Source: an uncultured Candidatus Saccharibacteria bacterium
GTDB taxonomy: Bacteria; Patescibacteriota; Minisyncoccia; Spechtbacterales; HO2-43-30
DNA: 63,450 bases
Direction: 5' to 3'
Assembly (NCBI GenBank): GCA_964374025.1
Contig: CAYJWU010000001.1
Coordinates: 1 to 63,450 of the forward strand
Numbering within the stretch: position 1 is the first letter of the stretch; each line of letters starts with the position of its first letter. The position numbers and the translations under genes are program-made. Shown here piece by piece: positions 840-44,401 of the stretch. The notes under the pieces were generated by a model. That model searched no databases. It had not been told where the DNA came from and saw only the letters and a program-made list of their open reading frames with translations.

Positions 840-840
840 A

Positions 841-8143: not shown

Positions 8144-8162
8144 CCGTTAGATTCCCCTTTAC

Positions 8163-8471: not shown

Positions 8472-8529
8472 CTTTCCCTCCTATTGTTTCATTTACTGGG
8501 CTCTTATCTGCCCCAATTTTCATGCTTCT

Positions 8530-8558
8530 ATTATAGCAAACCCCATGCTCTCTGTCAA
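8530..8558 (-). promoter_or_regulatory. consensus sigma70-type promoter (TTGACA-17 nt-TATAAT)
   Basis: Minus strand: -35 TTGACA at 8558-8553, a spacer of exactly 17 nt, -10 TATAAT at 8535-8530. About 55 nt upstream of the GTG at 8471. Confidence 0.7.
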
Positions 8559-8586
8559 GGTTTTGACCTCAATATTCTAATTTAAT

Positions 8587-8907: not shown

Positions 8908-8951
8908 ATGCCTATATCGTATGTCTGACTACCGAGCTTGTCAAATCTCAT

Positions 8952-13549: not shown

Positions 13550-13558
13550 TGCGAATAG

Positions 13559-26875: not shown

Positions 26876-28321
26876 TTAGCAAAGATCTCTTCGAATCTTT
26901 TGGGCTATATAATCCGCGATCTTTGCGTGATTTCCTTCCCTGTCTTCAACGTGGTCTGATATAACTCCGCTCACAGAACTCATATACATACCCTCACTAC
27001 AGGTAGATATTACATTATATATAAACCAAAGCCACTCCTCTTTGTTTTCGTCGTATATCCCCGAACCATTTTGAATAGCTTTAAATATAGCTGCGGGAAC
27101 ATCGCAGGGATCATTTGCCTTATAGATGAGATTGCTGTAACTAAAATAAATTTTAGAATCCAACATCACAACCGGCTTACGTTTAAGATACGCTTCCCAT
27201 CCAGAACTGCCGTTTAGAACAACCACAGCTTCAGAATTATCTATTAACAACTGTCTGTCTGTTAAGGGATGGATCAATCTAACATTTCTGATTTTTTTTA
27301 TTTTTTGGAGCCTCTTTAGCGATAGTTCGCCCGGTGTGGCAGGGTGCTCCTTTACATATAGTTTCATTCCAACCGGTAAATTTTCAGCAATTTCTTTAAT
27401 CAAAGAGTCCTGGTTATCCGTCCAATAATGAAAGCTTGCTAAATTGAATGCTTCTCTTTCATAAAATATTGGAAAATACACATAAGGTTCTTTTAGGGGT
27501 TTATCGTACGAAAACATATTATACGTAACGTATTTGTACCACGATTGCCTAACCAATCTCTTATTGGCATACTTAGTTACAGCGGCATCAATGGGGTCAT
27601 TCTGAAACCGTGCTTTAACCGCGGAATGAAAGTAGTAAAAAAAATCCCGAAAACGTTTGATAAAAGACTCGCCCATAAAAATATTAAATCTTTCTCGGGC
27701 ATCTTTGTTGCTTGAAAAATAATCGGTAATATAATCCGAAGCAATCCTGCGCTGCTCATTTGTCAGCGGTTTATACCCTTCTTTTATAGAATTCATAAGT
27801 TCGCTCCAACAATAGTCCTTGCCCATATCGCATAAAACTATGTATCTTTCTCCGGGACCTGGCATTAACATCCCGACTCGCGGTTTTCCGCGCGAAACTG
27901 CCACATTATAAGCGGCCCTTGAAGAAAAAAATGCCGCATCAACCAAAAGCAAATAATCAATATTATGATCTCCGAAAAACTTTTCCCAATATTCGTACGC
28001 AAGCGCGATTACATGCTGCTTTTCCACTTGGTCTTTGGAGGAAACGCGATCCAAATAAATATCGGACTTATACACGGAATTTATAGGATATGGGCCATGC
28101 CCCAAATCAAATTTAAGTAAATCACTTTGAGAAAGTGCGATCTCTTGATCCCATATATTGGAAATAAAATATACCTCAAATCCATCACGTCTGCACTCCT
28201 GGAACAAATCTTTGGTCCTTGCCACAAATAAAAATTCGATACCCTTATCCTTGAGTATCCTCGCCACATGTCGTAAAAGTATATAATCCTTACCTTCTGG
28301 TATATAACAAACTCGAATCAT
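26876..28321 (-). CDS. GT-B-like protein resembling capsule-synthesis (KpsC/KpsS, Capsule_synth) transferases
   Basis: VKEHPATPG (HP motif) and VVVLNGSSGWEAYLKRKPVVML in the C-terminal half. Confidence 0.45.
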   Translation of the reverse strand: MIRVCYIPEGKDYILLRHVARILKDKGIEFLFVARTKDLFQECRRDGFEVYFISNIWDQEIALSQSDLLKFDLGHGPYPINSVYKSDIYLDRVSSKDQVEKQHVIALAYEYWEKFFGDHNIDYLLLVDAAFFSSRAAYNVAVSRGKPRVGMLMPGPGERYIVLCDMGKDYCWSELMNSIKEGYKPLTNEQRRIASDYITDYFSSNKDARERFNIFMGESFIKRFRDFFYYFHSAVKARFQNDPIDAAVTKYANKRLVRQSWYKYVTYNMFSYDKPLKEPYVYFPIFYEREAFNLASFHYWTDNQDSLIKEIAENLPVGMKLYVKEHPATPGELSLKRLQKIKKIRNVRLIHPLTDRQLLIDNSEAVVVLNGSSGWEAYLKRKPVVMLDSKIYFSYSNLIYKANDPCDVPAAIFKAIQNGSGIYDENKEEWLWFIYNVISTCSEGMYMSSVSGVISDHVEDREGNHAKIADYIAQKIRRDLC

Positions 28322-28325: not shown

Positions 28326-29321
28326 TTAGTTCCTTTTTTTACCGATTAAAAGCATGTTGGATGATAACATATTTTTTGAAAGAAAATTTTGAAATTTCTC
28401 GCCAAGTTCCCCCCATCTGTCTATGAGAATCTGCTTTAAGAATGGCTGATTGGATATATCAAAATTTCCGGCAAGCACATCTTTCCTTACCAATTCAGCA
28501 TCCAATTGCCCGGGCGTAGAACTGTGCATAACATCGAACCCGCATATTCCCAGCAAAAGGGCTAAAGACTCGGGATGAAAATAATTTAGATGTTCAACGT
28601 CAACAGTATCAGACACTTCTTTCGTAACTTTGAGGTTGAATCCTTCTATATTGGGGCATGTTGTTATGACAATACCGCCCCTAGACAATACGGCCCTGCA
28701 GCCAAGCAAAAACTCTTTTGGAGAAAATAAATGCTCGATAACTTCAAAATTTGTTATCACGTCTATCTTCCCGCGGAACTTCGTATCTTCTATGCGCCTC
28801 TCCACAGTTTCAATTCCCTTCTTGCGGCACGTATCGGCTAAATCGGTATTTGGCTCTACTGCAATAACTCGTTTAAACAAGTTCAGTTTCTTGATTTCTT
28901 CGCAGAAAGTTCCAAAACCCGCTCCGACATCAACAATTGTTCCTAAATTTACTTTATATTTCATGCAAAGATCCCTTACTAATTCGGCCCTTGGTTTGAA
29001 AATTTTTTCACGCCGGGCGTTTTCTGATGCCGGAAAAATATATTTATTCCAATAAACGTAATTGCGTGAATAGCGGGAATACTCATCTATTACTTCCCTC
29101 GTCGGGCGGGGACAAACAAAAACCGTATCGCATTTCTTGCAGCGGACAAAGGTTAATCCGTATTTACGCCATTCTTTTTTATATTCCTTGGAATCGCATG
29201 CGGGACAACAAACCGCTACAAACTTATCCCTACGCTTTAACAAATCCCTGACATCGAGGATGAAAAGGCGCTTTTGCTCGGCCATTAACTCATCTGGCCG
29301 AATATCATTTTCTTTAAGCAT
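28326..29321 (-). CDS. class I SAM-dependent methyltransferase with an N-terminal zinc ribbon
   Basis: CPACDS...CKKCDTVFVCP, then VDVGAGFGTF and NFEVIEHL. Confidence 0.8.
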   Translation of the reverse strand: MLKENDIRPDELMAEQKRLFILDVRDLLKRRDKFVAVCCPACDSKEYKKEWRKYGLTFVRCKKCDTVFVCPRPTREVIDEYSRYSRNYVYWNKYIFPASENARREKIFKPRAELVRDLCMKYKVNLGTIVDVGAGFGTFCEEIKKLNLFKRVIAVEPNTDLADTCRKKGIETVERRIEDTKFRGKIDVITNFEVIEHLFSPKEFLLGCRAVLSRGGIVITTCPNIEGFNLKVTKEVSDTVDVEHLNYFHPESLALLLGICGFDVMHSSTPGQLDAELVRKDVLAGNFDISNQPFLKQILIDRWGELGEKFQNFLSKNMLSSNMLLIGKKRN

Positions 29322-29324: not shown

Positions 29325-30131
29325 CTATATTTTAATGGATCGAGAGCCAAAAGCACTGCACATAAACAAAAGTTTCCATTTATCCTCCGCAGAGAAATTC
29401 AACGTATTGGGATAGTCTTTTACCTTCGGAAGGAGACTGGGCGCGCGTTTGTGAAGGTTATAAAATTCCTGCTGCACCTCCAAAAATCCATAATTCTTAA
29501 GTTCATACTTGTAATTGAGGGGGTTTGCGCGAACATTAAACGTGACGATCTCAGGACCCGCTCCCCCCGTAAGTAATTTCACAATAGAATCTCTGTCGCC
29601 CTCATAAAAATATTTAGCAAAAAATTCTACGGTATAACTATTTAAAGAATAGATATCAAAAAGTTCGTTTGAGTGAGTCACAATAAGCGCCCCGCCTTTT
29701 TTGAGCATCCTTTGAGCTTGGCGATAAAACATATCACTCTCTTCGTCGTTAAGATATGCCAAGACATTAAACGAAGTTATGACATCAAAGCTCTCTGATT
29801 GAAATTTCGCCATGTCATATACGCTGCCCACTTCGGCTCTTTTCCCATTATGGCCATTTTTCTTCAAAGACTTTTTCGCGAGTTTTATCATCTTTTCCGA
29901 AATATCTATACCTATACAATCCGCCTTTCTCCCAAGGAACTCAATTACTGTAGCTCCGTCTCCGCAGCCGAAATCAAAACATTTTTTTCCCACAAAATCG
30001 ATATCTTGGTACAATTTCCGTATCATAGAAAATCTATGAAGATGATACGCATTGTTCATTTCTTCCGCGTATTTCTTCGCGCTTATGTCCCAATGTTTTT
30101 TTGAATCAATGTCTCGTGAATATATTTTCAT
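29325..30131 (-). CDS. class I SAM-dependent methyltransferase
   Basis: CFDFGCGDGAT; FDVITSFNVLAYL. ATG at 30131 overlaps the upstream stop (ATGA). Confidence 0.8.
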   Translation of the reverse strand: MKIYSRDIDSKKHWDISAKKYAEEMNNAYHLHRFSMIRKLYQDIDFVGKKCFDFGCGDGATVIEFLGRKADCIGIDISEKMIKLAKKSLKKNGHNGKRAEVGSVYDMAKFQSESFDVITSFNVLAYLNDEESDMFYRQAQRMLKKGGALIVTHSNELFDIYSLNSYTVEFFAKYFYEGDRDSIVKLLTGGAGPEIVTFNVRANPLNYKYELKNYGFLEVQQEFYNLHKRAPSLLPKVKDYPNTLNFSAEDKWKLLFMCSAFGSRSIKI

Positions 30132-31285
30132 ATAGTATCCCATATATAATCTTTTACCCACTCGCCTCGCTCATTTTTCCACCATACCCTGGGGTTACGA
30201 AATGTATCGGCAATCTTATCGAATTCCTCCTCCGTCATACCCGTCATATTCAAAAAATATTCTAGGGATTTTCTTGCTTTGACATGATCATATTTTCTCA
30301 CTAATTCTATGCCCGTTTTACGATCCATAATGCCCAATCTTATATCTTTGGAAGTATGGTCGGTACAGCGGCCATAACCAAATTTTATGTATTTTAAATA
30401 ATCCTTTATTCCGTTTTCGTGGATATCATCCACGTTTGATGTTGTTCTATATGTCCTTTCAAATGGCTCGGGGTTGGGCTTAAAGCCGTATTTCAAACTT
30501 ATTTCCCGAGTATGCTTATTCGCATCCCAATACACATATACTCCCATAAAGACGCCACGAACTCCCACTCGCGCAATTTCTTCATCCGAGGGAAATTTCG
30601 CCCACAGCAAATCTTCCTCCGACAAACCCTCTTCGCCAACAAAGTCATACCAGTCATATCCGCGCAAGGAATCTTCTTTGCGCTCCCGTACCGTAAACTC
30701 TGGTCTATCATCAAGGCTGTATTTGCCCGCAAGGTCGAGAAATCCATGCTCTCCGTAAATAACAAGCGGGATATTGAATTTTACCGCGATCTGAAACGGA
30801 GTTGTCCATACCCCGCAATGAAAATGCCAGCTCATATCACCGGTTTTTATAAAACCGGCGCGATTCATTTTTTTAATAACTCCAAGGCTCGGCGTAAATA
30901 TGTAATGATCGACGCCAAATACCCTGCTGATATTGCGCAGATTCTCCTCGCCCGTGGGGGTGTAATTGTGAGTATAGTACGTAACAAGAAGCGGATTCAA
31001 TCCCAATTTCTTCTTTATATACCAAACTTGAAAGTGGCTATCCTTCCCTCCGCTAACTGGAATAATGCAATCATAGTTACTTTTTGTCTTATCCCGATAA
31101 GAATACAACAAATCGGCAAATTCTTTTTCCCTCACATTCCAATCAATCTTCATCTTCTCGTCATTCACAACGCAACCACTGCAAACTCCCTCTTCATTGA
31201 GAGTCAAATTTACCGCAATCGCAGGATACGTGCACCGCGCACAATATCTCATACGCGGAGGACGATTTGTGGGATCATGTTGCAT
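30128..31285 (-). CDS. N-acetyl sugar amidotransferase (PseA / WbuX / WbpG family, PP-loop ATPase)
   Basis: N-terminal Cys cluster CARCTYP...CSGC, then PVSGGKDS PP-loop. Confidence 0.8.
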   Translation of the reverse strand: MQHDPTNRPPRMRYCARCTYPAIAVNLTLNEEGVCSGCVVNDEKMKIDWNVREKEFADLLYSYRDKTKSNYDCIIPVSGGKDSHFQVWYIKKKLGLNPLLVTYYTHNYTPTGEENLRNISRVFGVDHYIFTPSLGVIKKMNRAGFIKTGDMSWHFHCGVWTTPFQIAVKFNIPLVIYGEHGFLDLAGKYSLDDRPEFTVRERKEDSLRGYDWYDFVGEEGLSEEDLLWAKFPSDEEIARVGVRGVFMGVYVYWDANKHTREISLKYGFKPNPEPFERTYRTTSNVDDIHENGIKDYLKYIKFGYGRCTDHTSKDIRLGIMDRKTGIELVRKYDHVKARKSLEYFLNMTGMTEEEFDKIADTFRNPRVWWKNERGEWVKDYIWDTI

Positions 31286-31299
31286 GGGGTGTGAAAAAA

Positions 31300-32127
31300 T
31301 TATACTCGCATATCAATGCCGGACTCCTTCATATACTTTTTGGCATTTATGATACTCTGCTCAGTAAAATTAAAAATATTCGCTGCCGCAACTGCTGTCG
31401 CTTGCGCATCCCTAAGCCCTTCTACAAAATGTTCGAAGCGGCCAACTCCTCCAAGGGCTATAACGGGTATAGATACTGAATTTACAACCTTTCGTATGAG
31501 TACGAGGTCATATCCTTTCCCCGTACCATCTCGATCAATGGAATTAAGCAGTATTTCCCCCGCTCCCCTTTCTTCAACTTCGCGACACCAGAGAACCGGA
31601 TCGAGACCCGTTGGTTTTTTCCCAAAATCCGTATATACCTCATGCTTCTTTGTAATCGGATCATATTTTGCGTCAACCGATACAATAATACATTGGCTTC
31701 CGAATAGTTTTGCGGCGCGCGTAATAAATGACGGATCACTAATGGCTTTAGTATTAATGCTCACCTTGTCCGCCCCGTTTTTTAAACAAATACGCATATC
31801 GTCAAGCGTACGGATCTTTCCCCCTATTGTAAGAGGTACCGTGCATTTTGCTGATATACAACGGACAACATCAACAAAGCTGTCCCTGAATGTCACTGGG
31901 ATATCTTTCTTTGAAGTAGTCGAGCCGATCATACTCAAACGATCACGATAATCATGACCTCCTTCCCTGCTTATGTCAAGGTAAATAATTTCATCGGCCT
32001 TCCACGAACTGAATCTTTCGACTTGCCCAATCGGGTCCCCGAGCGACTGATGGAAACTAAACTCTCGGCTGCGCACAATAATGCCGTTTTTAAGAAGAAG
32101 AACAGCGATAAGTCGTGGCTTCAACAT
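31300..32127 (-). CDS. HisF-like cyclase subunit (WbuZ-type), glycan-associated
   Basis: RLIAVLLLKNGIIVRS and the (beta/alpha)8 pattern with GADKVSINT and GAGEILLNSIDRDGT. ATG at 32127 is preferred over the TTG at 32136. Confidence 0.8.
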   Translation of the reverse strand: MLKPRLIAVLLLKNGIIVRSREFSFHQSLGDPIGQVERFSSWKADEIIYLDISREGGHDYRDRLSMIGSTTSKKDIPVTFRDSFVDVVRCISAKCTVPLTIGGKIRTLDDMRICLKNGADKVSINTKAISDPSFITRAAKLFGSQCIIVSVDAKYDPITKKHEVYTDFGKKPTGLDPVLWCREVEERGAGEILLNSIDRDGTGKGYDLVLIRKVVNSVSIPVIALGGVGRFEHFVEGLRDAQATAVAAANIFNFTEQSIINAKKYMKESGIDMRV

Positions 32128-32132
32128 AGGAT

Positions 32133-32756
32133 TCAAAGATCTAAAAAGTTTTTAAAAATTTGCAGGCCATCCATATCGCTCTTTTCTGGATGAAACTGGG
32201 TCCCCCAGATATTGCCATCCTCAACCAGTGCCACAATATCATGACCATAGCAAGATGTGCCCGCAACTACACGCCTCTCGTCTGGCACAAAATGATAACT
32301 ATGCACAAAGTAGAAAATGGGCTCACTCTCAAATCTACTTGTTATTATATGGCGATTTTCTATCGCAACGTTGTTCCATCCAATATGAGGCAATCTATGC
32401 CCCGATTCCCTTGTATCAATTTTTACGACTTTTCCTTTTATGAAATCAAGTCCTTTATGCGATCCCCCTTCAAAACCCTCCGAGGCAAAAAGCTGCATAC
32501 CCAAACAAATTCCAAGGATTTTCTTTCTCTTTTCAACAACTTCTTCGCGTAAAACCGGAATGAGATTCCGCACACGGAGCCCCAAAATACCCGCGCCGAA
32601 ACTTCCCACGCCCGGCAATACAAGATGCGTCGCCTTCCTTATCGAATCTCGACTACTTGAAATTGTTGCCGATACTCCAAGCAGCTCCAGAGAATTCTTT
32701 ACTGACGTCAGATTTCCTACGCCATAATCAATTATGCAAACCTTGTGATAATACAT
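32133..32756 (-). CDS. HisH-like glutamine amidotransferase subunit (WbuY-type)
   Basis: CIIDYGVGNLTSV, GICLGMQ (nucleophile Cys), QFHPEKS. Confidence 0.85.
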   Translation of the reverse strand: MYYHKVCIIDYGVGNLTSVKNSLELLGVSATISSSRDSIRKATHLVLPGVGSFGAGILGLRVRNLIPVLREEVVEKRKKILGICLGMQLFASEGFEGGSHKGLDFIKGKVVKIDTRESGHRLPHIGWNNVAIENRHIITSRFESEPIFYFVHSYHFVPDERRVVAGTSCYGHDIVALVEDGNIWGTQFHPEKSDMDGLQIFKNFLDL

Positions 32757-32786
32757 AGTAATATAAAAATAAACACCTAAAAAACT

Positions 32787-34196
32787 TCACGCATGCCCAT
32801 TCTTAAGCCATTGAACATTTGAATATCTTTTATCTTCGTAATTCACTTTCCCATATTCGATCAAATCCTTAATCTCACGCACCCCATCCTCTATCTGCTT
32901 TGATGGAACGAAATGTAGCTCGCTTCGTGCCTTTCCAAAATCAACTTTATAATTTCTGATATCTGTTGCTCCCGTCTCTATTTGTATGCGCGCATCCGGT
33001 ACAACTTCGTGAACAATATCCCCCAGCTCCTCTATTCTGTAATTTTGCTCATTGCTGCCGCAGTTAAAAATCTGTCCGCCTACTTCTTGTATCGGCGCTT
33101 TAAGAATTTTTATAATAAATTCTCCGACATCTCTTACGTGCACATTCGGCCTCCATTGCTTGCCGCCCAAAATAGTTATAATTTTTCCTTTTACAGCCCG
33201 TGCTGTGAGTAAATTCACGACAAGATCAAATCGCGGCCTGAAAGATTTTCCGTATACAGTGGCCAATCTCAAGATAGTGGGCGCGAAATTCTCATCTCTC
33301 ATTTCAAGAAGCGCCCTCTCTGACGCAATCTTCATCCTTGCATAAAGTGAAACCGGCCTAAGCTCTGACTCTTCGTTGAGAAGCTCTTCGGATTCAGTCG
33401 CTCCGTACACACTACAGGAAGAAGTATATATTAACCTATTTATCTGGAAATATTTACACATCGAAGCAATAAGTCTAGTCGCAAGATAATTTGTCTGCAC
33501 TGTAATTTCAGGATTTATGGAACAGGCATAATCTCCAACAATCTCGGCAAGGTGTACTACTGCGTCCACATCGCGCATTGCGTCCGTTAAGTCTTCCACG
33601 TGCCTTGTGTCTCCTTTTACAATCCGAAGATTCCTTCGAGATTCTATGTCTTTTAATGAATCGTAGCCATATAAAAAAGCATCTAATACATTAACGTCAT
33701 AACCCCGGTCAAGCAAATCATGCACCAAAACAGATCCCGTATACCCTCCCCCTCCTATAACTAATATCTTCCTTACGTTTGGGGATCTCCAGCCACTGAA
33801 TTTGTTTTCCGAAAAGCGCGAAAATTTATCTCCGCGCACATCCAATATATCAACCACTTCTTTCGTCTTATTAACTAAAGGGATTTTAAAATATTCGAAT
33901 GGCCCGCGCGCAATTACCCTATTGCTCCTTAGAAATTTATTTATGCGGAAAAAATCCCACGAATCTTCCGCGACTAGCGGATCCGTATTCATAATAGAAG
34001 CTATATGCTCATCTATTCCCACGCCCCTCAAAATTGCTCTTCGCACGTCGCCGTCCGTTGCCGAACCAAGAATTTTCTTTTTTCCATCAACAACAAATAC
34101 AACTCTCTGTCCATTGCGATCTATAAGTCCAATGGCCTGTTTTATGCTAGCTTTATCACTAATCAGCATATCCAAAATTTTAGATCTGTTGTCCAT
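32787..34196 (-). CDS. CBS-domain pair fused to an NAD-dependent nucleotide-sugar epimerase/dehydratase
   Basis: N-terminal ~120 aa are CBS-like (VVFVVDGKKKILGSATDGDVRRAI). Then VIGGGGYTGS Rossmann motif and YARMK (YxxxK). Confidence 0.75.
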   Translation of the reverse strand: MDNRSKILDMLISDKASIKQAIGLIDRNGQRVVFVVDGKKKILGSATDGDVRRAILRGVGIDEHIASIMNTDPLVAEDSWDFFRINKFLRSNRVIARGPFEYFKIPLVNKTKEVVDILDVRGDKFSRFSENKFSGWRSPNVRKILVIGGGGYTGSVLVHDLLDRGYDVNVLDAFLYGYDSLKDIESRRNLRIVKGDTRHVEDLTDAMRDVDAVVHLAEIVGDYACSINPEITVQTNYLATRLIASMCKYFQINRLIYTSSCSVYGATESEELLNEESELRPVSLYARMKIASERALLEMRDENFAPTILRLATVYGKSFRPRFDLVVNLLTARAVKGKIITILGGKQWRPNVHVRDVGEFIIKILKAPIQEVGGQIFNCGSNEQNYRIEELGDIVHEVVPDARIQIETGATDIRNYKVDFGKARSELHFVPSKQIEDGVREIKDLIEYGKVNYEDKRYSNVQWLKNGHA

Positions 34197-34834
34197 TAAT
34201 CCGCCTTATAGATTTTAATGATATACTTATGGCCCCTGTATTTAAAAAAGGCAGGATATCTCCCATTATCTGCTACGCGCAAGTTATTGAACGCTTCTTT
34301 TATTGATTTATTGATATCCAGCTCGCCATCCCGCCAAGTTCTTCGGCGATACCATGAAGAGGTGCCTCGCTGAACCCTTGAAACAAAATTCGGATATTTT
34401 GCAATAAATTTAAGTGCCATTTCGATTACTTTGTTTGCCTGCTTTTCTCTAAGTTCGTCGTGTAACTCGTGGCCTTCTAGTATAATGTGATCTTCGAGAT
34501 AAATATTACCGCTGTCTACCTTTTCAGTTGCTTCGAATAAAGTAAACCAAATTTTCTTTTTCCCTTCGAGAACTTGCCATATGAGCGGAGCAAATCCGCG
34601 ACCTTGCGGCAATTTACTTCCATGTATAACAATATTATGTTTATTCAACTGTAATATATCCCTCCCAACAATTCTCTCGCAGCTTAAAAGAAACAAACAA
34701 TCGCCTCTTTTTATTTGACTATAACTATGCGCCAAAAAAACTGCGTGACCCTCTTTGCGCAAACTTTCTCTTAATCCTTTTGCGTGGGGGATAAACCAAC
34801 TACTTGGGTTATCCACCAAAATAGTAATCTTCAT
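34196..34834 (-). CDS. formyltransferase-family protein (Fmt/PurN-like N-terminal domain)
   Basis: NIVIHGSKLPQGRGFAPLIWQVLEG matches the formyl-transferase core. ATG at 34834 is preferred over the TTG at 34843. Confidence 0.7.
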   Translation of the reverse strand: MKITILVDNPSSWFIPHAKGLRESLRKEGHAVFLAHSYSQIKRGDCLFLLSCERIVGRDILQLNKHNIVIHGSKLPQGRGFAPLIWQVLEGKKKIWFTLFEATEKVDSGNIYLEDHIILEGHELHDELREKQANKVIEMALKFIAKYPNFVSRVQRGTSSWYRRRTWRDGELDINKSIKEAFNNLRVADNGRYPAFFKYRGHKYIIKIYKAD

Positions 34835-34855
34835 TGGTGGCAAGTTTATAAAATT

Positions 34856-35530
34856 TTAGTACTCCCGAATTGGATATCGAGTACCGTACCTTTCCTCTAG
34901 CTGCTTCAGCCCCCTTGCCACAAGTCCTCGATCTGCCGTTATGCTGTTTTCACGACGAATATAATGGAATAGGGGGGTTGCTACGTGCGCGCCTTTGTAT
35001 TTTTGATTCATTATTTTAATAAGAATATCGTATTCCGGAAAAATAAGTTCTTCGTCATATAACCCAACCTTAAAAAGAATCTCCTTCCTAAACATAATTC
35101 CTTCTGCGATACTGTTAAAAATATTATCGCCCAACGATACGACTTTTTTTGTGTTATTTCTTGAATGCTCCCAGTAATCGCAGTACGCAAATGCCGCTTT
35201 TTTATCTAGATTGAGTCGAGAATACAGCTCTTCTATACAATTTTTCTCAAACATATCGTCTGAATCCAGTAAAATCACGAAGGGGGTTGATGAATTTTTT
35301 ATACCAACATTAATCGCGGAAACAGGACCGGCATGCTCACTTTCTATTGCGCGGATTTTTTTATTAAAGCCGCGCACAATATTTATTGTCCCATCAGTTG
35401 ATCCGTCATCCACTACTATAACTTCGTATACGCCTCCCCCAAAAGATTGATCTAGCGCGCTAGAAATTGCTCTCTCAACAAACTCCCTAGAATTGAAAGT
35501 ACGTATAATAACACTAACTTTCGGTTTCAT
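34856..35530 (-). CDS. GT2 glycosyltransferase (SpsA-like, soluble)
   Basis: VSVIIRTFNSREFV, VVDDGSTDGT, LDSDD. Confidence 0.85.
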   Translation of the reverse strand: MKPKVSVIIRTFNSREFVERAISSALDQSFGGGVYEVIVVDDGSTDGTINIVRGFNKKIRAIESEHAGPVSAINVGIKNSSTPFVILLDSDDMFEKNCIEELYSRLNLDKKAAFAYCDYWEHSRNNTKKVVSLGDNIFNSIAEGIMFRKEILFKVGLYDEELIFPEYDILIKIMNQKYKGAHVATPLFHYIRRENSITADRGLVARGLKQLEERYGTRYPIREY

Positions 35531-35539
35531 ATTTGTCTT

Positions 35540-36646
35540 CTATTTAGTCAGTATATCGTCCCATGTTATGCTTTTGTTGGAAGGAATATCTTGCACCGCT
35601 CTATACCCTTTCATTAGTAAATCGTAGTACTTTGGCTCCAATCCGCTCCTGTTCTTTCCTGGGCGCAACACAGCAATGTTTCTTGAAGTAAACTTTTCTC
35701 CCTTTCTTATGCCCCGTATCGCAAAAATAGTCCTGTACAAAAAACTCCTATAGTAGTTCTCCTGCTTAATGTTTCGTTCGGTTTTGCCAAGCACAATTGA
35801 GTTTATTTTGATGTCGCCGCCTTTTCCGGCGCGGAGCTTATTTTCCGTATCCCTTATTGCTTTCACCATAGACTTCAATTCTCTGGGATTAAGCGCAAAA
35901 GAATGATCCGGCCCTGGCATGCGCCTATCTAATGTTATATGTTTTTCAACAACCTTAGCACCCAGAGCAACGGCTGCCTTTGGCCCCATGGCGGGATCTC
36001 GGCTATGGTCGGAAAACCCGACAATTGCGCGCGGAAAACATTGCTTAAACATATTTATTGTACGCAAATTTAAAACTTTTAGAGGAGCTGGGTATACGGC
36101 AACGCAATGCATAATAACTATCTTATTGTTGCCTTCGTTCTCTATAGCTTCCACGGCCTCTGCGATCTCTTTCAATTTAGCCATGCCAAATGAGATTATG
36201 ACGGGCTTATTCTTTTTTGCGACATGGCGGATGAGTGGTATGTGCGAAGATTCGGAAGATGTAATTTTATACGCATCTGTGCCAAATTTTTCCAGCATAT
36301 CCGCGCTGACCTCGTCGCAAACTGAAGAGAAAAACTCCAAGCCCTTTGCGTGCGAATATTTGCGCAATTTGGGCAGCCACGCAAATGGAAGCTCGGAGTC
36401 TCTAATAATCTCTAATATATCGCGCTTTTCCCCACTTGCAATTTTATATTTTCCTGCATTTTGAGGATACATTCTCCCTGCTCTAAAAAGTTGAAATTTA
36501 ACAGCGTTACAACCAGTTTCTGCCGCAACGTCAATTAACTGCAGAGCTTGCTCATACTTGCCGTCATAATTAATGCCGATTTCAGCGACTACAAAGCATG
36601 GATTTTCTGCTCCTATTTTTGTTTTGCCTATTTTGAATTCCTTCAT
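35540..36646 (-). CDS. nonulosonic acid synthase (NeuB / PseI / LegI family) with a C-terminal SAF domain
   Basis: VVAEIGINYDG, NAVKFQ, MHCVAVYPAP, GFSDHS, EKHITLD. Confidence 0.85.
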   Translation of the reverse strand: MKEFKIGKTKIGAENPCFVVAEIGINYDGKYEQALQLIDVAAETGCNAVKFQLFRAGRMYPQNAGKYKIASGEKRDILEIIRDSELPFAWLPKLRKYSHAKGLEFFSSVCDEVSADMLEKFGTDAYKITSSESSHIPLIRHVAKKNKPVIISFGMAKLKEIAEAVEAIENEGNNKIVIMHCVAVYPAPLKVLNLRTINMFKQCFPRAIVGFSDHSRDPAMGPKAAVALGAKVVEKHITLDRRMPGPDHSFALNPRELKSMVKAIRDTENKLRAGKGGDIKINSIVLGKTERNIKQENYYRSFLYRTIFAIRGIRKGEKFTSRNIAVLRPGKNRSGLEPKYYDLLMKGYRAVQDIPSNKSITWDDILTK

Positions 36647-36647
36647 A

Positions 36648-37793
36648 TTAAGATAATATTTCTTTTACTGAATGAATTACGTAGTTAACATCCCCTTTCG
36701 TCATTTTAGGATACAATGGGAGCGAAACTATTCTTCTGAATATTCCTTCCGTTATGGGCAAAATGCCCCGCTTATAACCGAATTTCTTTCGGTAAAAAGA
36801 TTGCATGTGCAGGGGTATAAAATGCACGCTTGCGGCTATGTTTTTCTTTGCGAGTTTTTCTATGAATAAATCTCGCGCAAAGCCTTCAACTAATATGGGG
36901 TATAAATGATATGCGTGCCTTGATAGGGCTTCTGTACTAAAAATTTTTATGCGCTTCAGGTCTTTCAGGCCATCCGTATACAGACTCGCGTATTCATTTC
37001 TTATTTTCATAAACTTATCTGCTTTTTTCAATTGACAAATACCGAGAGCCGCTTGGATATCAAACATATTGTACTTCCAACCCGCATATTCTATATCATA
37101 TCGCCAAGACCCGCCTTTAGAATATCTCTTCCAGGCATCTTTTGAAATTCCGTGCAGTCTGTTTTTTATTACGAAATCGGCAATGCTCCTGTTATTCGTT
37201 GTAAGCATCCCGCCTTCTCCCGTAGTAATGCACTTCGTAGGATAAAAACTAAAACAGGTTGTGTTGCCAAATGAACCAATCTTTTTCCCCCTATACTCAC
37301 TCCCTAGGGCATGAGCCGCGTCTTCGATAATAATGAGTTTCTTATTTTTTGCGATTTCATTAACTGCCTCAATATCATAGGGATTCCCGCCGTAATGAAC
37401 AGGGACAATAGCTTTTGTATTTCTCGTGATAGCGCCTTTTATTTTCTCGGGATCAATGTTTAATGTATCTTCCCTTATGTCGACAAATATAGGTTTTGCC
37501 CCTACGTTAACAACCATATTTGCGCAGGAAGCAAAAGTAAAAGAAGGCATTATCACCTCGTCTCCCGGACCTACGCCATGGGCAAGAAGAGCCAAATGTA
37601 GCGAGGCGGTACAGGATGTCAGCCCAATCGCGTATTTCACTCCGATGTATGACGCGAAATCCTTTTCAAATTGACGGGTCTTCGGGCCAGTAGATAGCCA
37701 CCCCGATCTAAGAATTGCTACTACCTCATTTATTTCATCCCTTTCAATTGTTGGCAGACAAAATGGCATAAATTTTTCATGCGCTTTATCCAT
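36648..37793 (-). CDS. DegT/DnrJ/EryC1-family PLP aminotransferase (PseC/LegC/SpsC-like)
   Basis: SCTASLHLAL, DAAHALG, SFYPTKCITTGEGG (PLP lysine context). Confidence 0.9.
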   Translation of the reverse strand: MDKAHEKFMPFCLPTIERDEINEVVAILRSGWLSTGPKTRQFEKDFASYIGVKYAIGLTSCTASLHLALLAHGVGPGDEVIMPSFTFASCANMVVNVGAKPIFVDIREDTLNIDPEKIKGAITRNTKAIVPVHYGGNPYDIEAVNEIAKNKKLIIIEDAAHALGSEYRGKKIGSFGNTTCFSFYPTKCITTGEGGMLTTNNRSIADFVIKNRLHGISKDAWKRYSKGGSWRYDIEYAGWKYNMFDIQAALGICQLKKADKFMKIRNEYASLYTDGLKDLKRIKIFSTEALSRHAYHLYPILVEGFARDLFIEKLAKKNIAASVHFIPLHMQSFYRKKFGYKRGILPITEGIFRRIVSLPLYPKMTKGDVNYVIHSVKEILS

Positions 37794-37796
37794 GGG

Positions 37797-38495
37797 TTAT
37801 CGCGAATTATTACGCAAAAATTCAATAATTTTTTCCAGTATAATTTCTCCTCTGTTATCACGGAAAAATACTGACTCTATTTTTTTAAACATTTGATAAT
37901 CCTCCTCTGTGTCTAATGTTAAACGAATGCCATCCGCGTTATACGACTTCAGGGGCGCTACATCCTTCTGCTTAAATAGTTCGGAATGTTTGTAGAAATA
38001 TGGAGTCACATGTTCGCGTTCGTAATCTAGTTTTGCGTCATGATGCGCGGCTTCAAGCGCGTGGAATGTAAATACCTCCGATCCGGTTCCCACGGGCATC
38101 CCGCTTCTATGGTTGCTCACGTAGTCTAAATTTTCATTTATCAAAATATCAACCAATCTGCTCATCTCTATCATATCTGTAAATATGTTATCGGAAGTAA
38201 CTCTGCCTATAATTTCGCTTGCAAATCTCCTCGCAGCTTCATAATATCGCCCAAGCACGTCCTGCTCGCTCCCTCGCGAATATATATATAATCTCTTTTT
38301 GCATAGTTCTTCTATGGCATCATCCTTCGGGTTAATAGTGGTCGCGACTATAACATTTCCCACGCGGCTGGAAGCCCTTGCGGATTCTACAATATACTCA
38401 AGTACTGATACTCCCGCAAATGGCAAGAGGACTTTCCCCGGCAAACGCGTTGATCCCATCCTTGCCTGTATAATAATATCTATGGCTCGTTTCAT
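37797..38495 (-). CDS. cytidylyltransferase of the SpsF / acylneuraminate cytidylyltransferase family
   Basis: IIIQARMGSTRLPGKVL N-terminus. Confidence 0.75.
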   Translation of the reverse strand: MKRAIDIIIQARMGSTRLPGKVLLPFAGVSVLEYIVESARASSRVGNVIVATTINPKDDAIEELCKKRLYIYSRGSEQDVLGRYYEAARRFASEIIGRVTSDNIFTDMIEMSRLVDILINENLDYVSNHRSGMPVGTGSEVFTFHALEAAHHDAKLDYEREHVTPYFYKHSELFKQKDVAPLKSYNADGIRLTLDTEEDYQMFKKIESVFFRDNRGEIILEKIIEFLRNNSR

Positions 38496-38508: not shown

Positions 38509-38760
38509 CTACCAATCCCTTATTTTATCACTAATGCTCTTCTTCATGCCGCGGTACCAATGTATCGCCCTTTTCTCAACCGCTGGAGATATAACCCTAA
38601 GCAATTCACGGCCCAAAAAACGATACTGCCCGCCAACTTTATTCGCGCGTATTATGCCCTTCTTTATCATACGCTTCATAGTGCTGCTGCTTACCTTAAG
38701 CAACATCTGTGTTTCCTTCGTGGTATATACTGCGTTTGGCTTTATCTCTTGATCTATCAT
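38509..38760 (-). CDS. excisionase/MerR-type helix-turn-helix DNA-binding protein
   Basis: YTTKETQMLLKVSSSTMKRMIKKGIIRANKVGGQYRF. ATG at 38760 is preferred over the TTG at 38790. First gene of the minus-strand sugar operon. Confidence 0.65.
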   Translation of the reverse strand: MIDQEIKPNAVYTTKETQMLLKVSSSTMKRMIKKGIIRANKVGGQYRFLGRELLRVISPAVEKRAIHWYRGMKKSISDKIRDW

Positions 38761-38866
38761 ATATAAATAAACTATACTAAATAGTACCAAAAGGTGTCAA
38801 TGAGTATCGCGGCTATTGCGCTATATAACAATATCTTGTTATCATATTCTCAATTACTTCTTGCAC

Positions 38867-39669: not shown

Positions 39670-39670
39670 C

Positions 39671-41358: not shown

Positions 41359-41370
41359 GCCCTATCGCTA

Positions 41371-44396: not shown

Positions 44397-44401
44397 CTTC
44401 C

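What the first reader, a model, noticed from the sequence alone, without database searches (positions are those of the whole stretch)
30128..38495. Nonulosonic-acid operon with PseA-HisH-HisF acetamidino module and a formyltransferase
This is a contiguous, translationally coupled minus-strand set:
- an SpsF-type cytidylyltransferase;
- a DegT aminotransferase;
- a NeuB/PseI-type synthase with a SAF domain;
- a GT2;
- an Fmt-like formyltransferase;
- a CBS-fused SDR;
- a HisH-like and a HisF-like protein;
- a PP-loop N-acetyl sugar amidotransferase.

Established parallels exist. The pseA-hisH-hisF-like trio sits next to pseI in the Campylobacter jejuni flagellin glycosylation locus, which makes acetamidino pseudaminic acid. 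wbuX/Y/Z play the equivalent role in O-antigen loci making acetamidino sugars. N-formylated pseudaminic acid occurs in Pseudomonas aeruginosa O7-type glycans.

Missing from the set are an obvious PseG/NeuC-type NDP-sugar hydrolase and a PseH-type acetyltransferase. The route and the final N-acyl pattern (formyl and/or acetamidino) may therefore be non-canonical.
Basis: partly seen in the sequence, partly recalled or inferred. Interest (0 to 1): 0.6.

Follow-up and report, generated by a model that had tools for sequence, protein, structure and literature searches.

The report
Sialic-acid-like sugar operon, swapped enzymes
An ultra-small (CPR) bacterium carries a complete-looking operon for a decorated sialic-acid-like nine-carbon surface sugar in which three textbook enzymes are replaced by unrelated proteins, most notably a tiny glycosyltransferase-fold protein that probably frees the sugar from its nucleotide carrier.

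Summary
All nine genes are present at the stated coordinates, on the minus strand and tightly packed. They form the core of a 14-gene operon (38760 to 25039) in a 0.78-Mb CPR/Patescibacteria genome.

- **Synthase, aminotransferase, cytidylyltransferase:** they belong to the Bacillus SpsE/SpsC/SpsF lineage (49, 49 and 38% identity), not to the PseI or NeuB/LegI equivalogs.
- **Missing enzymes:** the genome has no PseG, NeuC/Epimerase_2 or PseH gene.
- **Cassette:** CTP-transferase, DegT, NeuB and a short GT2 are followed by an acyltransferase and an SDR. This cassette recurs in CPR and DPANN genomes.
- **Acyltransferase slot:** it holds Fmt, Hexapep or GNAT. The Fmt-fold protein therefore probably N-formylates the 4-amino group.
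- **Short GT2 (224 aa):** the DxD motif is invariant. All 18 multi-domain relatives tested are fused to pathway-type enzymes. It most likely replaces PseG as the NDP-sugar hydrolase.
- **CBS-SDR:** it fills the dehydratase slot but lacks the Asp/Glu pair and most resembles the C4-dehydrogenase Cj1427.
- **WbuX/HisH/HisF:** these are dedicated to the pathway, since the genome has no other hisA/F/H-like genes.

Predicted product: a CMP-5-acetamidino-7-formamido nonulosonic acid. This is a new variant of a known kind, and no step has been tested biochemically.

The parts
38771..38800 (-). Promoter-like site, TTGACA-18-TATAGT (11 of 12 matches), upstream of the first gene of the operon.
   Evidence: This is a consensus match only. 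The region as a whole has no more such sites than shuffled sequence.
38509..38760 (-). Small HTH_17 (excisionase/MerR-like) DNA-binding protein of 83 aa; candidate operon regulator.
   Evidence: Pfam PF12728, 40.5 bits. An HTH_17 gene also lies about 2 kb upstream of the closest relative cassette, L183, separated from it by two ABC-transporter genes.
37797..38495 (-). SpsF-type cytidylyltransferase (CMP-NulO synthetase), 232 aa.
   Evidence: PF02348, 120 bits. It is 38% identical to Bacillus velezensis SpsF and 53% to the L183 homologue. The PseF and KdsB models score far below their cut-offs.
36648..37793 (-). SpsC/PseC/ArnB-like PLP aminotransferase, 381 aa; adds the 4-amino group to the NDP-4-keto sugar.
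   Evidence: PF01041, 442.7 bits. PseC scores 376 bits (cut-off 423.5) and ArnB 373 bits. It is 49% identical to Bacillus SpsC.
35540..36646 (-). SpsE-clade nonulosonic acid synthase (NeuB plus SAF), 368 aa. It is the only NeuB-family gene in the genome.
   Evidence: PDB 1vli (SpsE) scores 374 bits, against 163 for PseI and 157 for NeuB. The tree places it in the SpsE clade (SH-aLRT 95-100).
34856..35530 (-). Short GT-A (GT2) protein of 224 aa with no transmembrane or acceptor domain; proposed NDP-sugar hydrolase replacing PseG/SpsG/NeuC.
   Evidence: PF00535, 94.5 bits. The family has an invariant DxD motif and Asp168. All 18 multi-domain relatives tested are fused to NulO-type enzymes. It lies directly after NeuB in 8 independent relatives. 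The AF2 model has pLDDT 95.7 and its top structural match is 6p61.
34196..34843 (-). Fmt-fold acyltransferase, 212-215 aa; proposed N-formyltransferase acting on the 4-amino group.
   Evidence: PF00551, 35.4 bits. The ArnA formyltransferase domain is the best PDB match. The slot is occupied by Hexapep or GNAT in sister cassettes. His71 and Asp107 are invariant, but the canonical Asn is Val.
32787..34196 (-). CBS-pair plus extended SDR, 469 aa; proposed first enzyme, making the NDP-4-keto sugar.
   Evidence: The best PDB match is 6vo6 (Cj1427), E 2e-40. It has an invariant S-x-C-S-V-Y-G motif and YxxxK, with no TDE or TSE. It occupies the LegB slot in L100 and L102.
32133..32756 (-). HisH/WbuY-type glutaminase subunit, 207 aa.
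   Evidence: TIGR01855, 213 bits. The catalytic Cys (GICLGMQ) and His-Glu (HPEKS) can be read directly. The genome has no paralogue.
31300..32136 (-). HisF/WbuZ-type ammonia-channel subunit, 278 aa, with a ~24-aa insertion.
   Evidence: WbuZ scores 259 bits, HisF 247 and AglZ 211, all below their cut-offs. The insertion is seen against the G030 homologue. The first cyclase Asp (from memory) reads Leu here. No HisA or HisF paralogue exists in the genome.
30128..31285 (-). WbuX/PseA-type PP-loop N-acetyl sugar amidotransferase, 385 aa.
   Evidence: TIGR03573, 342.7 bits against a cut-off of 203. The SGGKDS PP-loop and the N-terminal CxxC...CxxC can be read directly.
29325..30161 (-). SAM methyltransferase overlapping the 3' end of wbuX. 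It may methylate the acetamidino group or a hydroxyl (inferred only).
   Evidence: Methyltransf_31/25/11. In G030 a methyltransferase likewise sits between hisF and wbuX.
28326..29321 (-). Second SAM methyltransferase (Methyltransf_23), 331 aa.
   Evidence: It is 26% identical to the methyltransferase that follows the cassette in L006 and L183.
26876..28321 (-). Capsule_synth-like protein (presumed GT-B) of 481 aa with a KEHP motif; candidate CMP-ulosonic-acid transferase.
   Evidence: PF05159, 29.7 bits. It is related to proteins beside the cassettes in L185 (E 3e-16) and G030 (E 3e-6).
25039..26847 (-). ABC exporter (transmembrane domain plus ATPase), 602 aa; last gene of the run.
   Evidence: PF00005 and PF00664.

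Best explanation
The region is the biosynthetic core of a 14-gene operon. It makes, decorates and probably exports a CMP-activated 5,7-diamino nonulosonic acid (NulO) of the Bacillus Sps-type lineage, in a CPR bacterium. The proposed order of steps is as follows.

1. The CBS-SDR oxidises an NDP-GlcNAc-type sugar at C4, with or without 4,6-dehydration. The CBS pair may sense a nucleotide end-product.
2. The SpsC-like aminotransferase installs the 4-amino group.
3. The Fmt-fold protein N-formylates that amine, replacing the acetyltransferase PseH/SpsD/LegH.
4. The short GT2 acts as a 'masked glycosyltransferase' that transfers the sugar to water. This releases the free hexose and replaces PseG/SpsG/NeuC.
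5. The SpsE-like synthase condenses the hexose with PEP.
6. The SpsF-like enzyme makes the CMP-NulO.
7. WbuX, with ammonia supplied by HisH through HisF, converts the remaining N-acetyl group to acetamidino.

The methyltransferases, the Capsule_synth-like transferase and the ABC exporter would then finish and deliver the glycan.

Shown: gene content, order, family membership, genome-wide absences, recurrent synteny and gene fusions. Inferred: every catalytic step, the substrate nucleotide, the stereochemistry and the final N-acyl pattern (predicted 5-acetamidino-7-formamido).
For: **Domains and coupling.**

**Sps lineage.**
- PDB 1vli (SpsE) scores 374 bits, against 163 for PseI and 157 for NeuB.
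- Identity to B. velezensis SpsE, SpsC and SpsF is 49, 49 and 38%.
- The tree places the synthase in the SpsE clade.

**Genome-wide absences.** PseG, NeuC, PseH and Epimerase_2 are all absent.

**Recurrent cassette.** It occurs with the same order in L183 (47-64% identity for all six genes) and in L004/5, L184, L185, L006/7, L008 and G030.

**Interchangeable slots.**
- The acyltransferase slot holds Fmt, Hexapep or GNAT.
- The SDR slot holds the CBS-SDR or a Polysacc_synt_2 protein.

**Short GT2.**
- All 18 multi-domain close relatives tested are fused to pathway-type enzymes: 8 CTP_transf_3, 5 GNAT, 1 NeuB, 1 NeuB plus CTP_transf_3, 1 Fmt, 1 GFO oxidoreductase and 1 formamidase. Two more NeuB-GT2 fusions appear.
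- The DxD motif is invariant. Sialyltransferases usually lack DxD (PMC7439481), so the substrate is more likely an NDP-sugar than a CMP-sugar.
- No GT2-bearing cassette has a NeuC-like or PseG-like hit within 6 kb of NeuB.
- Of the 30 class-mates examined (own genome plus the 29 with the strongest NeuB matches), 26 carry Epimerase_2, usually adjacent to NeuB.
- G030 has one NeuB beside Epimerase_2 and another beside the GT2.
- The sister branches of the GT2-linked synthase subclade carry PseG-like genes.

**Acetamidino module.** WbuX scores above its cut-off. There are no other hisA/F/H-like genes in the genome.
Against: - No enzyme of this cassette has been assayed.
- Every characterised GT2 is a transferase, and all structural neighbours with a known function are transferases. 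Eight fusions to the CMP-transferase would also fit a role after activation.
- L006, L184 and L185 have Epimerase_2 genes 5-9 kb from the cassette, which could supply the hydrolase there.
- The Fmt-fold family has Val in place of the catalytic Asn, so formyl transfer is not assured.
- The CBS-SDR lacks the acid/base pair of known 4,6-dehydratases.
- The PseG detection by tblastn used a single seed and is insensitive.
- The genome is about 91% complete, so a missing gene could lie in a gap.
Confidence: 0.68

Rival explanations
1. The operon makes a NulO, but the short GT2 is an ordinary glycosyltransferase. It would add the NulO or a neighbouring sugar to the growing glycan. The NDP-sugar would be released by something else: an unrecognised hydrolase, a promiscuous activity of another enzyme, or a gene in the unsequenced ~9% of the genome.
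For: All GT2 structural neighbours with a known function are transferases. The GT2 is often fused to the CMP-transferase, in 8 of the 18 fusions tested, which would suit activation followed by transfer. Earlier notes of this scan proposed other PseG substitutes (DUF218, a 620-aa GT-B) in other CPR clusters.
Against: - The invariant DxD points to an NDP-sugar, not a CMP-sugar.
- The GT2 is also fused to early-step enzymes (GNAT, Fmt, formamidase).
- It is only ~220 aa, with no membrane or acceptor domain.
- It alternates with PseG and NeuC on the synthase tree.
- A separate HP-motif candidate transferase is already present.
- No DUF218 or other candidate hydrolase lies in the operon.
Confidence: 0.22
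2. The CBS-SDR is a plain C4 dehydrogenase like Cj1427 and not a 4,6-dehydratase. C6 would then keep its hydroxyl, and the product would be a 5,7-diamino-3,5,7-trideoxy (9-hydroxy) nonulosonic acid, a backbone not recorded to my knowledge.
For: - The best solved relative is Cj1427 (6vo6, E 2e-40), a C4-dehydrogenase (PMC10680097).
- The motif S-x-C-S-V-Y-G is invariant, without the Asp/Glu pair found in RmlB-, LegB- or UXS-type enzymes.
- No PseB/PglF-type dehydratase exists in the genome: it has only four extended SDRs.
Against: - The family occupies the LegB/PseB slot and is interchangeable with Polysacc_synt_2 dehydratases in sister cassettes.
- Identity to Cj1427 is only about 30%.
- An invariant Cys could serve as an alternative acid/base.
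- The TSE-type SDR at 61383-62375 might supply a 4-keto-6-deoxy sugar.
Confidence: 0.3
3. DegT, Fmt, the SDR and the GT2 form an Arn-like route, by analogy to ArnB, ArnA and ArnC, to a lipid-linked 4-formamido sugar that is independent of the synthase.
For: - DegT scores 373 bits on ArnB, and the Fmt's best matches are the ArnA formyltransferase domain.
- The window also holds a UDP-glucose dehydrogenase fragment, an ArnA-C/UXS-like SDR (STSEIYG...RWGYALSK), two Polysacc_deac_1 genes and a PMT_2 protein.
Against: - The GT2 is fused to NeuB and CTP_transf_3 in relatives.
- The six-gene cassette is co-inherited with NeuB.
- The GT2 lacks ArnC's membrane anchor and scores only 21 bits on the ArnC model.
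- The CBS-SDR lacks the decarboxylase Glu.
Confidence: 0.04

Closest known systems
Bacillus subtilis Sps legionaminic acid pathway (SpsM, SpsC, SpsD, SpsG, SpsE, SpsF; PMC7439481)
   Same: The synthase, aminotransferase and cytidylyltransferase are the closest characterised relatives: 49, 49 and 38% identity to B. velezensis, and 1vli is the top PDB hit. Both follow six-step logic from an NDP-GlcNAc to a CMP-NulO. An SpsB-like, HP-motif protein lies nearby in both.
   Different: - The SpsM (Polysacc_synt_2) dehydratase is replaced by a CBS-SDR.
- The SpsD acetyltransferase is replaced by an Fmt-fold protein.
- The SpsG (PseG-like GT-B) hydrolase is replaced by a short GT-A protein.
- This operon adds a WbuX/HisH/HisF module and methyltransferases.
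- The host is a CPR bacterium, not a spore former.
Canonical CMP-pseudaminic acid pathway PseB/C/H/G/I/F plus PseA (Campylobacter jejuni, Helicobacter pylori). PseG is described as a 'masked glycosyltransferase' (Liu and Tanner 2006, cited in PMC5638570).
   Same: The number and order of chemical steps are the same. Both use a glycosyltransferase-fold protein with water as acceptor and a PP-loop amidotransferase for the acetamidino group. From memory, PseG is fused to PseF in H. pylori HP0326, which parallels the CTP_transf_3-GT2 fusions seen here.
   Different: None of the Pse equivalog models reaches its cut-off: PseB 43 (cut-off 408), PseC 376 (423.5), PseI 263 (340) and PseF 26 (206) bits. 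PseG and PseH are absent. The hydrolase candidate has a GT-A fold with DxD, not a GT-B fold.
Acetamidino modules: WbuX/WbuY/WbuZ (O-antigen FucNAm), AglX/Y/Z (Methanococcus maripaludis N-glycan) and PseA with Cj1314c/Cj1315c or PtmG/PtmH (C. jejuni). The roles are from memory and from the NCBIfam names TIGR03573, TIGR03572 and NF038364.
   Same: All share the three-gene architecture of a PP-loop amidotransferase with HisH-like and HisF-like subunits. WbuX scores above its cut-off. The genome has no histidine pathway. A methyltransferase sits next to the amidotransferase, as with ptmG/ptmH (bioRxiv 10.64898/2026.04.20.719630).
   Different: The HisF-like protein scores below the WbuZ, HisF and AglZ cut-offs and carries a ~24-aa insertion. 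The substrate, and the stage at which it acts (NDP-sugar, free NulO or CMP-NulO), are unknown.
N-formylated NulO clusters: Halorubrum sp. PV6 Leg5Fo (PMC6137143) and Ca. Kuenenia stuttgartiensis formylated/deacetylated NulO (bioRxiv 10.64898/2026.04.20.719630)
   Same: A formyltransferase-family gene is embedded among the leg/neu-type genes, and formylated NulOs have been detected chemically in those organisms.
   Different: Those clusters keep LegG/NeuC and an acetyltransferase or deacetylase. This operon has no deacetylase or acetyltransferase, so the only free amine is the 4-amino group, predicted to become N7. The Fmt here is a short, ~212-aa family with Val at the canonical Asn position.
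Cj1427, the GDP-heptose C4-dehydrogenase of C. jejuni (PDB 6vo6; PMC10680097)
   Same: It is the best solved relative of the SDR domain (E 2e-40). Both lack the dehydratase Asp/Glu pair.
   Different: Identity is only about 30%. Cj1427 has no CBS pair. Its context is heptose modification, not NulO synthesis. The active-site motif is T-N-S in Cj1427 and S-C-S here.

Membership tests
NeuB family of nonulosonic acid synthases (PF03102 plus SAF) | The Pfam NeuB domain scores above the gathering score, with a C-terminal SAF domain. | tested here: met
   NeuB scores 259.9 bits (cut-off 22.1) and SAF 27.6 bits (cut-off 21). DAHP-synthase models score only 26-32 bits.
NeuB/LegI equivalog (TIGR03569) and PseI equivalog (TIGR03586) | The whole-protein score reaches the curated cut-off. 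| tested here: not met
   TIGR03569 scores 296.9 (cut-off 399.65) and TIGR03586 scores 263 (cut-off 340.25).
SpsE clade of NulO synthases | The protein is closest to B. subtilis SpsE and groups with it on a tree. | tested here: met
   1vli scores 374 bits against 163 or less for other PDB synthases. The protein lies in a clade with B. velezensis SpsE, SH-aLRT 100 (11 rows) and 95 (15 rows).
Canonical Pse pathway | PseB, PseH and PseG are present. | tested here: not met
   PseG and PseH are absent genome-wide. The best PseB score is 43-48 bits, against a cut-off of 408.
Canonical Leg/Neu pathway | A hydrolysing 2-epimerase (NeuC/LegG, Epimerase_2) and a LegB equivalog are present. | tested here: not met
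   NeuC and PF02350 give no match in the genome. LegB TIGR04180 scores 85 bits (CBS-SDR) and 179 bits (61383-62375), against a cut-off of 475.
B. subtilis Sps Leg pathway | All six genes SpsM, C, D, G, E and F are present. | tested here: not met
   SpsC-, SpsE- and SpsF-like genes are present. No SpsG-like gene, SpsD-like gene or Polysacc_synt_2 dehydratase was found.
WbuX / PseA N-acetyl sugar amidotransferase (TIGR03573) | The score is above the cut-off and a PP-loop SGGxDS motif is present. | tested here: met
   The score is 342.7 against a cut-off of 203.2. SGGKDS can be read at residues 78-83.
WbuZ / HisF / AglZ | The score is above the curated cut-off of one of these models. | tested here: not met
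   WbuZ scores 259.2 (cut-off 299.7), HisF 246.6 (294.55) and AglZ 211 (310). The Pfam His_biosynth domain is met at 175 bits. The best match is WbuZ.
HisH glutaminase (TIGR01855) | The score is above the cut-off and the Cys-His-Glu triad is present. | tested here: met
   The score is 213.3 against a cut-off of 105.4. The Cys in GICLGMQ and the HPE motif can be read directly.
N10-formyl-THF-dependent formyltransferases (PF00551) | The domain scores above the cut-off. | tested here: met
   The score is 35.4 against a cut-off of 26.1, covering profile positions 79-169 only.
N10-formyl-THF-dependent formyltransferases (PF00551) | The catalytic Asn-x-His...Asp triad is present (ArnA N102/H104/D140, from memory). 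| tested here: not met
   His71 and Asp107 are invariant. The residue two before the His is an almost invariant Val, and an almost invariant Asn lies four before it.
GT2 inverting glycosyltransferases (PF00535) | A GT-A fold with a DxD motif and a downstream catalytic acid. | tested here: met
   PF00535 scores 94.5 bits. D89, D91, D92 and D168 are conserved. The AF2 model has pLDDT 95.7, with a Foldseek TM-score of 0.79 to 6p61 and 0.71 to SpsA.
NDP-sugar hydrolase acting as PseG (functional class) | Hydrolysis of the NDP-2,4-diacylamido-trideoxyhexose to the free sugar. | not testable with these tools
   The evidence is context only: fusions, synteny, and mutual exclusion with PseG and NeuC.
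Extended-SDR NDP-sugar 4,6-dehydratases (RmlB/LegB/Gmd type) | A Thr-Asp-Glu or Thr-Ser-Glu motif before the YxxxK. | tested here: not met
   The CBS-SDR family has S-(S/T)-C-S-V-Y-G. LegB-like SDRs in other loci have TSE, and RmlB-like ones have TDE.

The most novel reading that the evidence does not exclude
In many CPR bacteria and DPANN archaea, a ~220-aa GT-A (GT2) protein has displaced the GT-B enzymes PseG/SpsG (and NeuC) as the nucleotide-sugar hydrolase of nonulosonic acid synthesis. It forms a portable cassette with an SpsE-type synthase and an exchangeable N-acyltransferase, which here is an Fmt-fold enzyme lacking the canonical Asn. Together with a CBS-fused, Cys-bearing SDR that is not a classical 4,6-dehydratase, the cassette may yield a 5-acetamidino-7-formamido NulO. 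That sugar might even be a 9-hydroxy backbone, which has not been recorded to my knowledge.
Probability: 0.5. Interest if true: 0.72.

Novelty: new variant of a known kind. Interest (0 to 1): 0.55.

Why it matters
Nonulosonic acids shape how microbes are seen by hosts, phages and partner cells. CPR bacteria live attached to other cells, and this one spends about 8% of a 0.78-Mb genome on the glycan island that holds this operon.

The analysis gives a concrete, testable candidate for the sugar-release step that is 'missing' from many NulO clusters of uncultivated lineages. That candidate is a GT-A 'masked glycosyltransferase'. The analysis also flags two further untested enzyme families: a CBS-SDR in the dehydratase slot, and a short Fmt-fold acyltransferase.

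If confirmed, these would improve pathway prediction in metagenomes; NeuB genes occur in 84 of 301 sampled genomes of this class (own genome included). They would also supply compact enzymes for chemo-enzymatic synthesis of N-formyl or acetamidino NulOs. The operon itself is a variant of a well-known pathway type, so the interest is moderate.

Tried and rejected
- **Metagenome scan with the GT2 alignment.** The scan used the generic motif YEIIVVDDGS and returned only ordinary GT2 genes (34% identity or less). It gave no information on the short family.
- **Single-seed tblastn for PseG and NeuC near NeuB.** The search is insensitive: 33 of 66 full-flank loci showed neither gene. I use the co-occurrence only as supporting evidence.
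- **A PseG elsewhere in the genome.** The only weak hit (15.8 bits, contig 5) is MurG, lying beside Mur ligase and FemAB genes. Rejected.
- **The second DegT, on contig 5.** It sits in a lipid or peptidoglycan-type context, not a sugar-dehydratase one.
- **A hairpin mini-element as the source of the HisF insertion.** No inverted repeat was found.
- **Homology between the Capsule_synth-like protein and Bacillus SpsB.** The direct comparison is not significant. The link is only transitive, through L185 and L004.
- **Rfam scan of the window.** No family matched.
- **Literature search.** Searches for NulOs in Patescibacteria/CPR, or for a GT2 UDP-sugar hydrolase, found nothing in the held library.

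Full report
**1. Observation**

| Coordinates | Assignment | Score |
|---|---|---|
| 37797-38495 | CTP_transf_3 | 120 bits |
| 36648-37793 | DegT | 443 bits |
| 35540-36646 | NeuB plus SAF | 260 and 28 bits |
| 34856-35530 | GT2, 224 aa | 94.5 bits |
| 34196-34843 | Formyl_trans_N | 35 bits (cut-off 26) |
| 32787-34196 | CBS plus extended SDR, 469 aa | Epimerase 151 bits, CBS 26 bits |
| 32133-32756 | HisH | 213 bits (cut-off 105) |
| 31300-32136 | HisF/WbuZ-like | 259 bits (cut-off 299.7) |
| 30128-31285 | WbuX-type PP-loop amidotransferase | 343 bits (cut-off 203) |

These assignments come from Pfam and NCBIfam. Neighbouring genes are separated by between a 4-nt overlap and a 30-nt gap.

The run is longer than reported:
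- Upstream lies an 83-aa HTH_17 gene (38509-38760) behind the best promoter-like site of the region, TTGACA-18-TATAGT at 38800-38771.
- Downstream, with gaps of 3-28 nt, lie two SAM methyltransferases, a Capsule_synth-like protein and an ABC exporter, ending at 25039.

**2. Host and context**

The window belongs to a 778-kb genome in 34 contigs, estimated 90.8% complete. Earlier notes of this scan call it a CPR/Parcubacteria bacterium, and the best protein matches are from Patescibacteria and DPANN archaea. Most of the 63-kb window consists of glycan genes.

NeuB-family genes are common in this class. Of 301 sampled genomes (own genome included), 84 have one.

**3. What is missing**

In the whole genome there is:
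- one NeuB gene;
- no PseG, the only 15.8-bit hit being MurG next to Mur ligase genes;
- no NeuC or any Epimerase_2 gene;
- no PseH.

Only four extended SDRs exist:
- the CBS-SDR;
- a GalE/TviC-like protein at 13559-14458;
- an ArnA-C/UXS-like protein at 61383-62375, with STSEIYG and RWGYALSK motifs;
- a NAD_binding_4 reductase on contig 5.

No Polysacc_synt_2-type (PseB/PglF/SpsM) dehydratase is present. HisH and HisF have no paralogue, and no HisA-like gene was found. These two genes therefore serve WbuX and not histidine synthesis.

**4. Lineage of the core enzymes**

The synthase fails both equivalog cut-offs: NeuB/LegI 297 (cut-off 400) and PseI 263 (cut-off 340). Its best solved relative by far is B. 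subtilis SpsE (1vli, 374 bits). PseI scores 163 and meningococcal NeuB 157.

Against Bacillus velezensis, the synthase, aminotransferase and cytidylyltransferase are 49, 49 and 38% identical to SpsE, SpsC and SpsF. In B. subtilis these genes, with SpsM, SpsD and SpsG, are required for legionaminic acid synthesis (PMC7439481).

A maximum-likelihood tree of 98 NeuB homologues with known neighbours shows three groupings:
- a NeuC-linked set of synthases within a 22-row grouping (SH-aLRT 90), whose 10-row core has support 96;
- a large PseG-linked clade;
- an SpsE clade (SH-aLRT 95) that holds the window's synthase.

The synthase is a NulO synthase, not a KDO8P- or DAHP-like enzyme.

**5. A recurrent cassette with exchangeable slots**

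Loci around the closest synthases share the order CTP-transferase, DegT, NeuB, short GT2, N-acyltransferase, SDR.

- **L183 (Patescibacteria):** all six genes in the same order, at 53, 64, 57, 47, 59 and 51% identity.
- **L004/L005:** the same set, with the cytidylyltransferase last.
- **L184:** a Hexapep acyltransferase in place of Fmt.
- **L185:** a GNAT in place of Fmt, with WbuX-HisF-HisH, a Capsule_synth-like gene and the CBS-SDR placed divergently.
- **L006/L007:** GT2 fused to Fmt, followed by a PIG-L deacetylase, a GNAT and a Polysacc_synt_2-hitting SDR.
- **A Woesearchaeota locus (L008):** NeuB, GT2 and Hexapep, plus WbuX-HisH-HisF and a Polysacc_synt_2 dehydratase.
- **G030 (same family as the window's genome):** DegT, CTP-transferase, HisH, HisF, methyltransferase, WbuX, GT2, Fmt, NeuB.

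The Fmt-fold gene therefore sits where other cassettes carry an acetyltransferase, and the CBS-SDR sits where others carry a PseB/PglF-type dehydratase. The WbuXYZ module is an optional add-on.

**6. The short GT2**

Conserved features of the family:
- It is about 220 aa long with no further domain.
- It keeps an invariant DxD motif (D89, D91, D92) and a downstream Asp168.
- It folds as a compact GT-A domain (AF2 pLDDT 95.7).
- Its nearest structure is the uncharacterised Leptospira borgpetersenii protein 6p61.

In a search of 1.8 billion representatives, the close full-length relatives include many multi-domain proteins. All 18 that I tested are fused to NulO-pathway-type enzymes:

| Fusion partner | Count |
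|---|---|
| CTP_transf_3 | 8 |
| GNAT | 5 |
| NeuB | 1 |
| NeuB plus CTP_transf_3 | 1 |
| Formyl_trans_N/C | 1 |
| GFO oxidoreductase | 1 |
| Formamidase | 1 |

Two more NeuB-GT2 fusions appeared.

Distribution relative to the known hydrolases:
- The cassette has six genes for six steps, and the only step without a candidate is release of the hexose from its nucleotide.
- No GT2-bearing cassette has a NeuC-like or PseG-like hit within 6 kb of NeuB.
- Of the 30 class-mates examined (own genome plus the 29 with the strongest NeuB matches), 26 carry Epimerase_2, usually adjacent to NeuB. None has PseG.
- G030 has one NeuB beside Epimerase_2 and another beside the GT2.
- On the tree, the GT2-linked synthases form a subclade (SH-aLRT 90, inner six at 97). 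Its sisters, Bacillus SpsE and L010, carry PseG-like genes.

PseG itself is a glycosyltransferase homologue that uses water as acceptor (Liu and Tanner 2006, cited in PMC5638570). Sialyltransferases usually lack DxD (PMC7439481), which argues that this GT2 acts on an NDP-sugar and not on the CMP-NulO.

I therefore rate 'GT-A hydrolase replacing PseG' as the most likely role, at about 55-60%. An ordinary transferase role is not excluded.

**7. The Fmt-fold protein**

Its best solved matches are the formyltransferase domain of ArnA and Fmt. A family of ~212-aa proteins is widespread.

In 25 members, His71, Ser73, Pro76 and Asp107 are invariant. The residue two before the His, which is the catalytic Asn of ArnA and GART (from memory), is an almost invariant Val. 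An almost invariant Asn lies four before the His.

Formyl transfer is thus plausible but not assured. Formyltransferase genes inside NulO clusters, and N-formyl NulOs themselves, are documented in Halorubrum (PMC6137143) and Kuenenia (bioRxiv 10.64898/2026.04.20.719630).

This operon has neither a deacetylase nor an acetyltransferase. The only free amine is therefore the 4-amino group, which becomes N7 of the NulO.

**8. The CBS-SDR**

This fusion is a large family in DPANN, marine Euryarchaeota, Omnitrophota and CPR genomes. It occupies the LegB position in otherwise canonical Leg-like clusters that have NeuC, Hexapep, DegT and NeuB (L100 and L102).

All 36 aligned members keep S259, C261, S262, Y264, G265 and Y285xxxK289, with no Asp/Glu pair. 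LegB-like SDRs in my loci read TSE and RmlB-like ones read TDE.

The best solved relative is Cj1427 (6vo6, E 2e-40), a GDP-heptose C4-dehydrogenase (PMC10680097).

Two readings remain:
- a dehydratase with unusual catalytic residues, which I put at about 55%;
- a plain C4 oxidase, about 30%, which would leave a 9-hydroxyl and give a backbone not recorded to my knowledge.

The CBS pair on the first enzyme may allow feedback control by a nucleotide product. This is inference only.

**9. Acetamidino module and downstream genes**

- WbuX passes its model cut-off and shows the SGGKDS PP-loop.
- HisH keeps its catalytic triad.
- The HisF-like protein has Leu where the first cyclase Asp of HisF lies (from memory) and carries a ~24-aa insertion. 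This is as expected for an ammonia-channel subunit.
- A methyltransferase overlaps the end of wbuX. In C. jejuni the ptmG/ptmH pair makes an N-methyl-acetimidoyl group, so a similar role is possible but untested.
- The Capsule_synth-like protein has a KEHP motif. It is related to proteins beside the cassettes in L185 and G030, and more distantly, through L004, to Bacillus SpsB. It is a candidate CMP-ulosonic-acid transferase, but the divergent operon at 38911-46832 makes a second CMP-activated acid, so the pairing is open.

**10. Verdict**

The operon is a member of the NulO-pathway kind, in a variant form. It has an Sps-type core, with three slots filled by non-orthologous proteins (CBS-SDR, Fmt-fold acyltransferase, short GT2), plus an acetamidino module.

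The predicted product is a CMP-5-acetamidino-7-formamido nonulosonic acid, possibly methylated. Its stereochemistry is unknown.

An earlier report of this scan on another CPR genome reached the same GT2/Fmt idea. I tested that idea here with fusions, synteny, genome-wide absences and a tree, but it is not independent evidence.

Noticed in passing
window 38911-46832 (+): A divergent operon encodes an HpcH/HpaI aldolase, a KdsB-type cytidylyltransferase (318 bits, above its cut-off), a D-2-hydroxyacid dehydrogenase, FkbM methyltransferases and a HAD phosphatase. This is a second CMP-activated sugar-acid route next to the NulO operon, already followed up in this scan (e1-3322641).
   Followed up: partly
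window 55999-62375 (-) and 12740-14458 (-): Arn-like parts are scattered in the window: an ArnA-C/UXS-like SDR (STSEIYG...RWGYALSK), two Polysacc_deac_1 genes, a FemAB-like GNAT, a truncated-looking UDP-glucose dehydrogenase (269 aa) and a GalE/TviC-like SDR. There is also a PMT_2 protein at 22522-23691. Together they may form a 4-amino-pentose or uronic-acid route.
   Followed up: partly
window 31900-32000 (HisF-like residues ~57-85): The HisF/WbuZ-like protein has a ~24-aa insertion after the second strand, relative to its G030 homologue. No inverted repeat lies in the DNA, so it does not look like one of the in-frame hairpin elements reported elsewhere in this genome.
   Followed up: yes
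L183 12861-14171, L184 11215-12459, L185 11262-12569, L006 13954-15255, L186 9838-11055: A DUF4910/DUF2172/Peptidase_M28-like protein (~410-435 aa), usually followed by a Methyltransf_23 protein, sits directly after many SpsE-type cassettes. It is absent from the window, where WbuXYZ takes that position. Its role in NulO tailoring is unknown.
   Followed up: no
L100 (marine Euryarchaeota contig, 85-9401): A near-canonical Leg-like cluster (CTP_transf_3, HisF, HisH, WbuX-like, NeuB, NeuC, Hexapep, DegT) uses the CBS-SDR as its only dehydratase candidate. The open question about this SDR therefore applies to abundant marine archaea too.
   Followed up: partly
G000 contig 5, 21800-27700 (L099 10849-16648): A cluster holds a NAD_binding_4 reductase, an acyltransferase, a FemAB-like protein, a second DegT-family aminotransferase and a Mur ligase. 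It may modify a peptidoglycan stem or a lipid.
   Followed up: no
P0449 (373 aa) and P0303 (530 aa): Two further fusions were seen among relatives: GNAT plus the short Fmt-fold domain, and formamidase (FmdA_AmdA) plus the short GT2. They hint at N-acyl editing (formyl on, formyl off) within these pathways.
   Followed up: no
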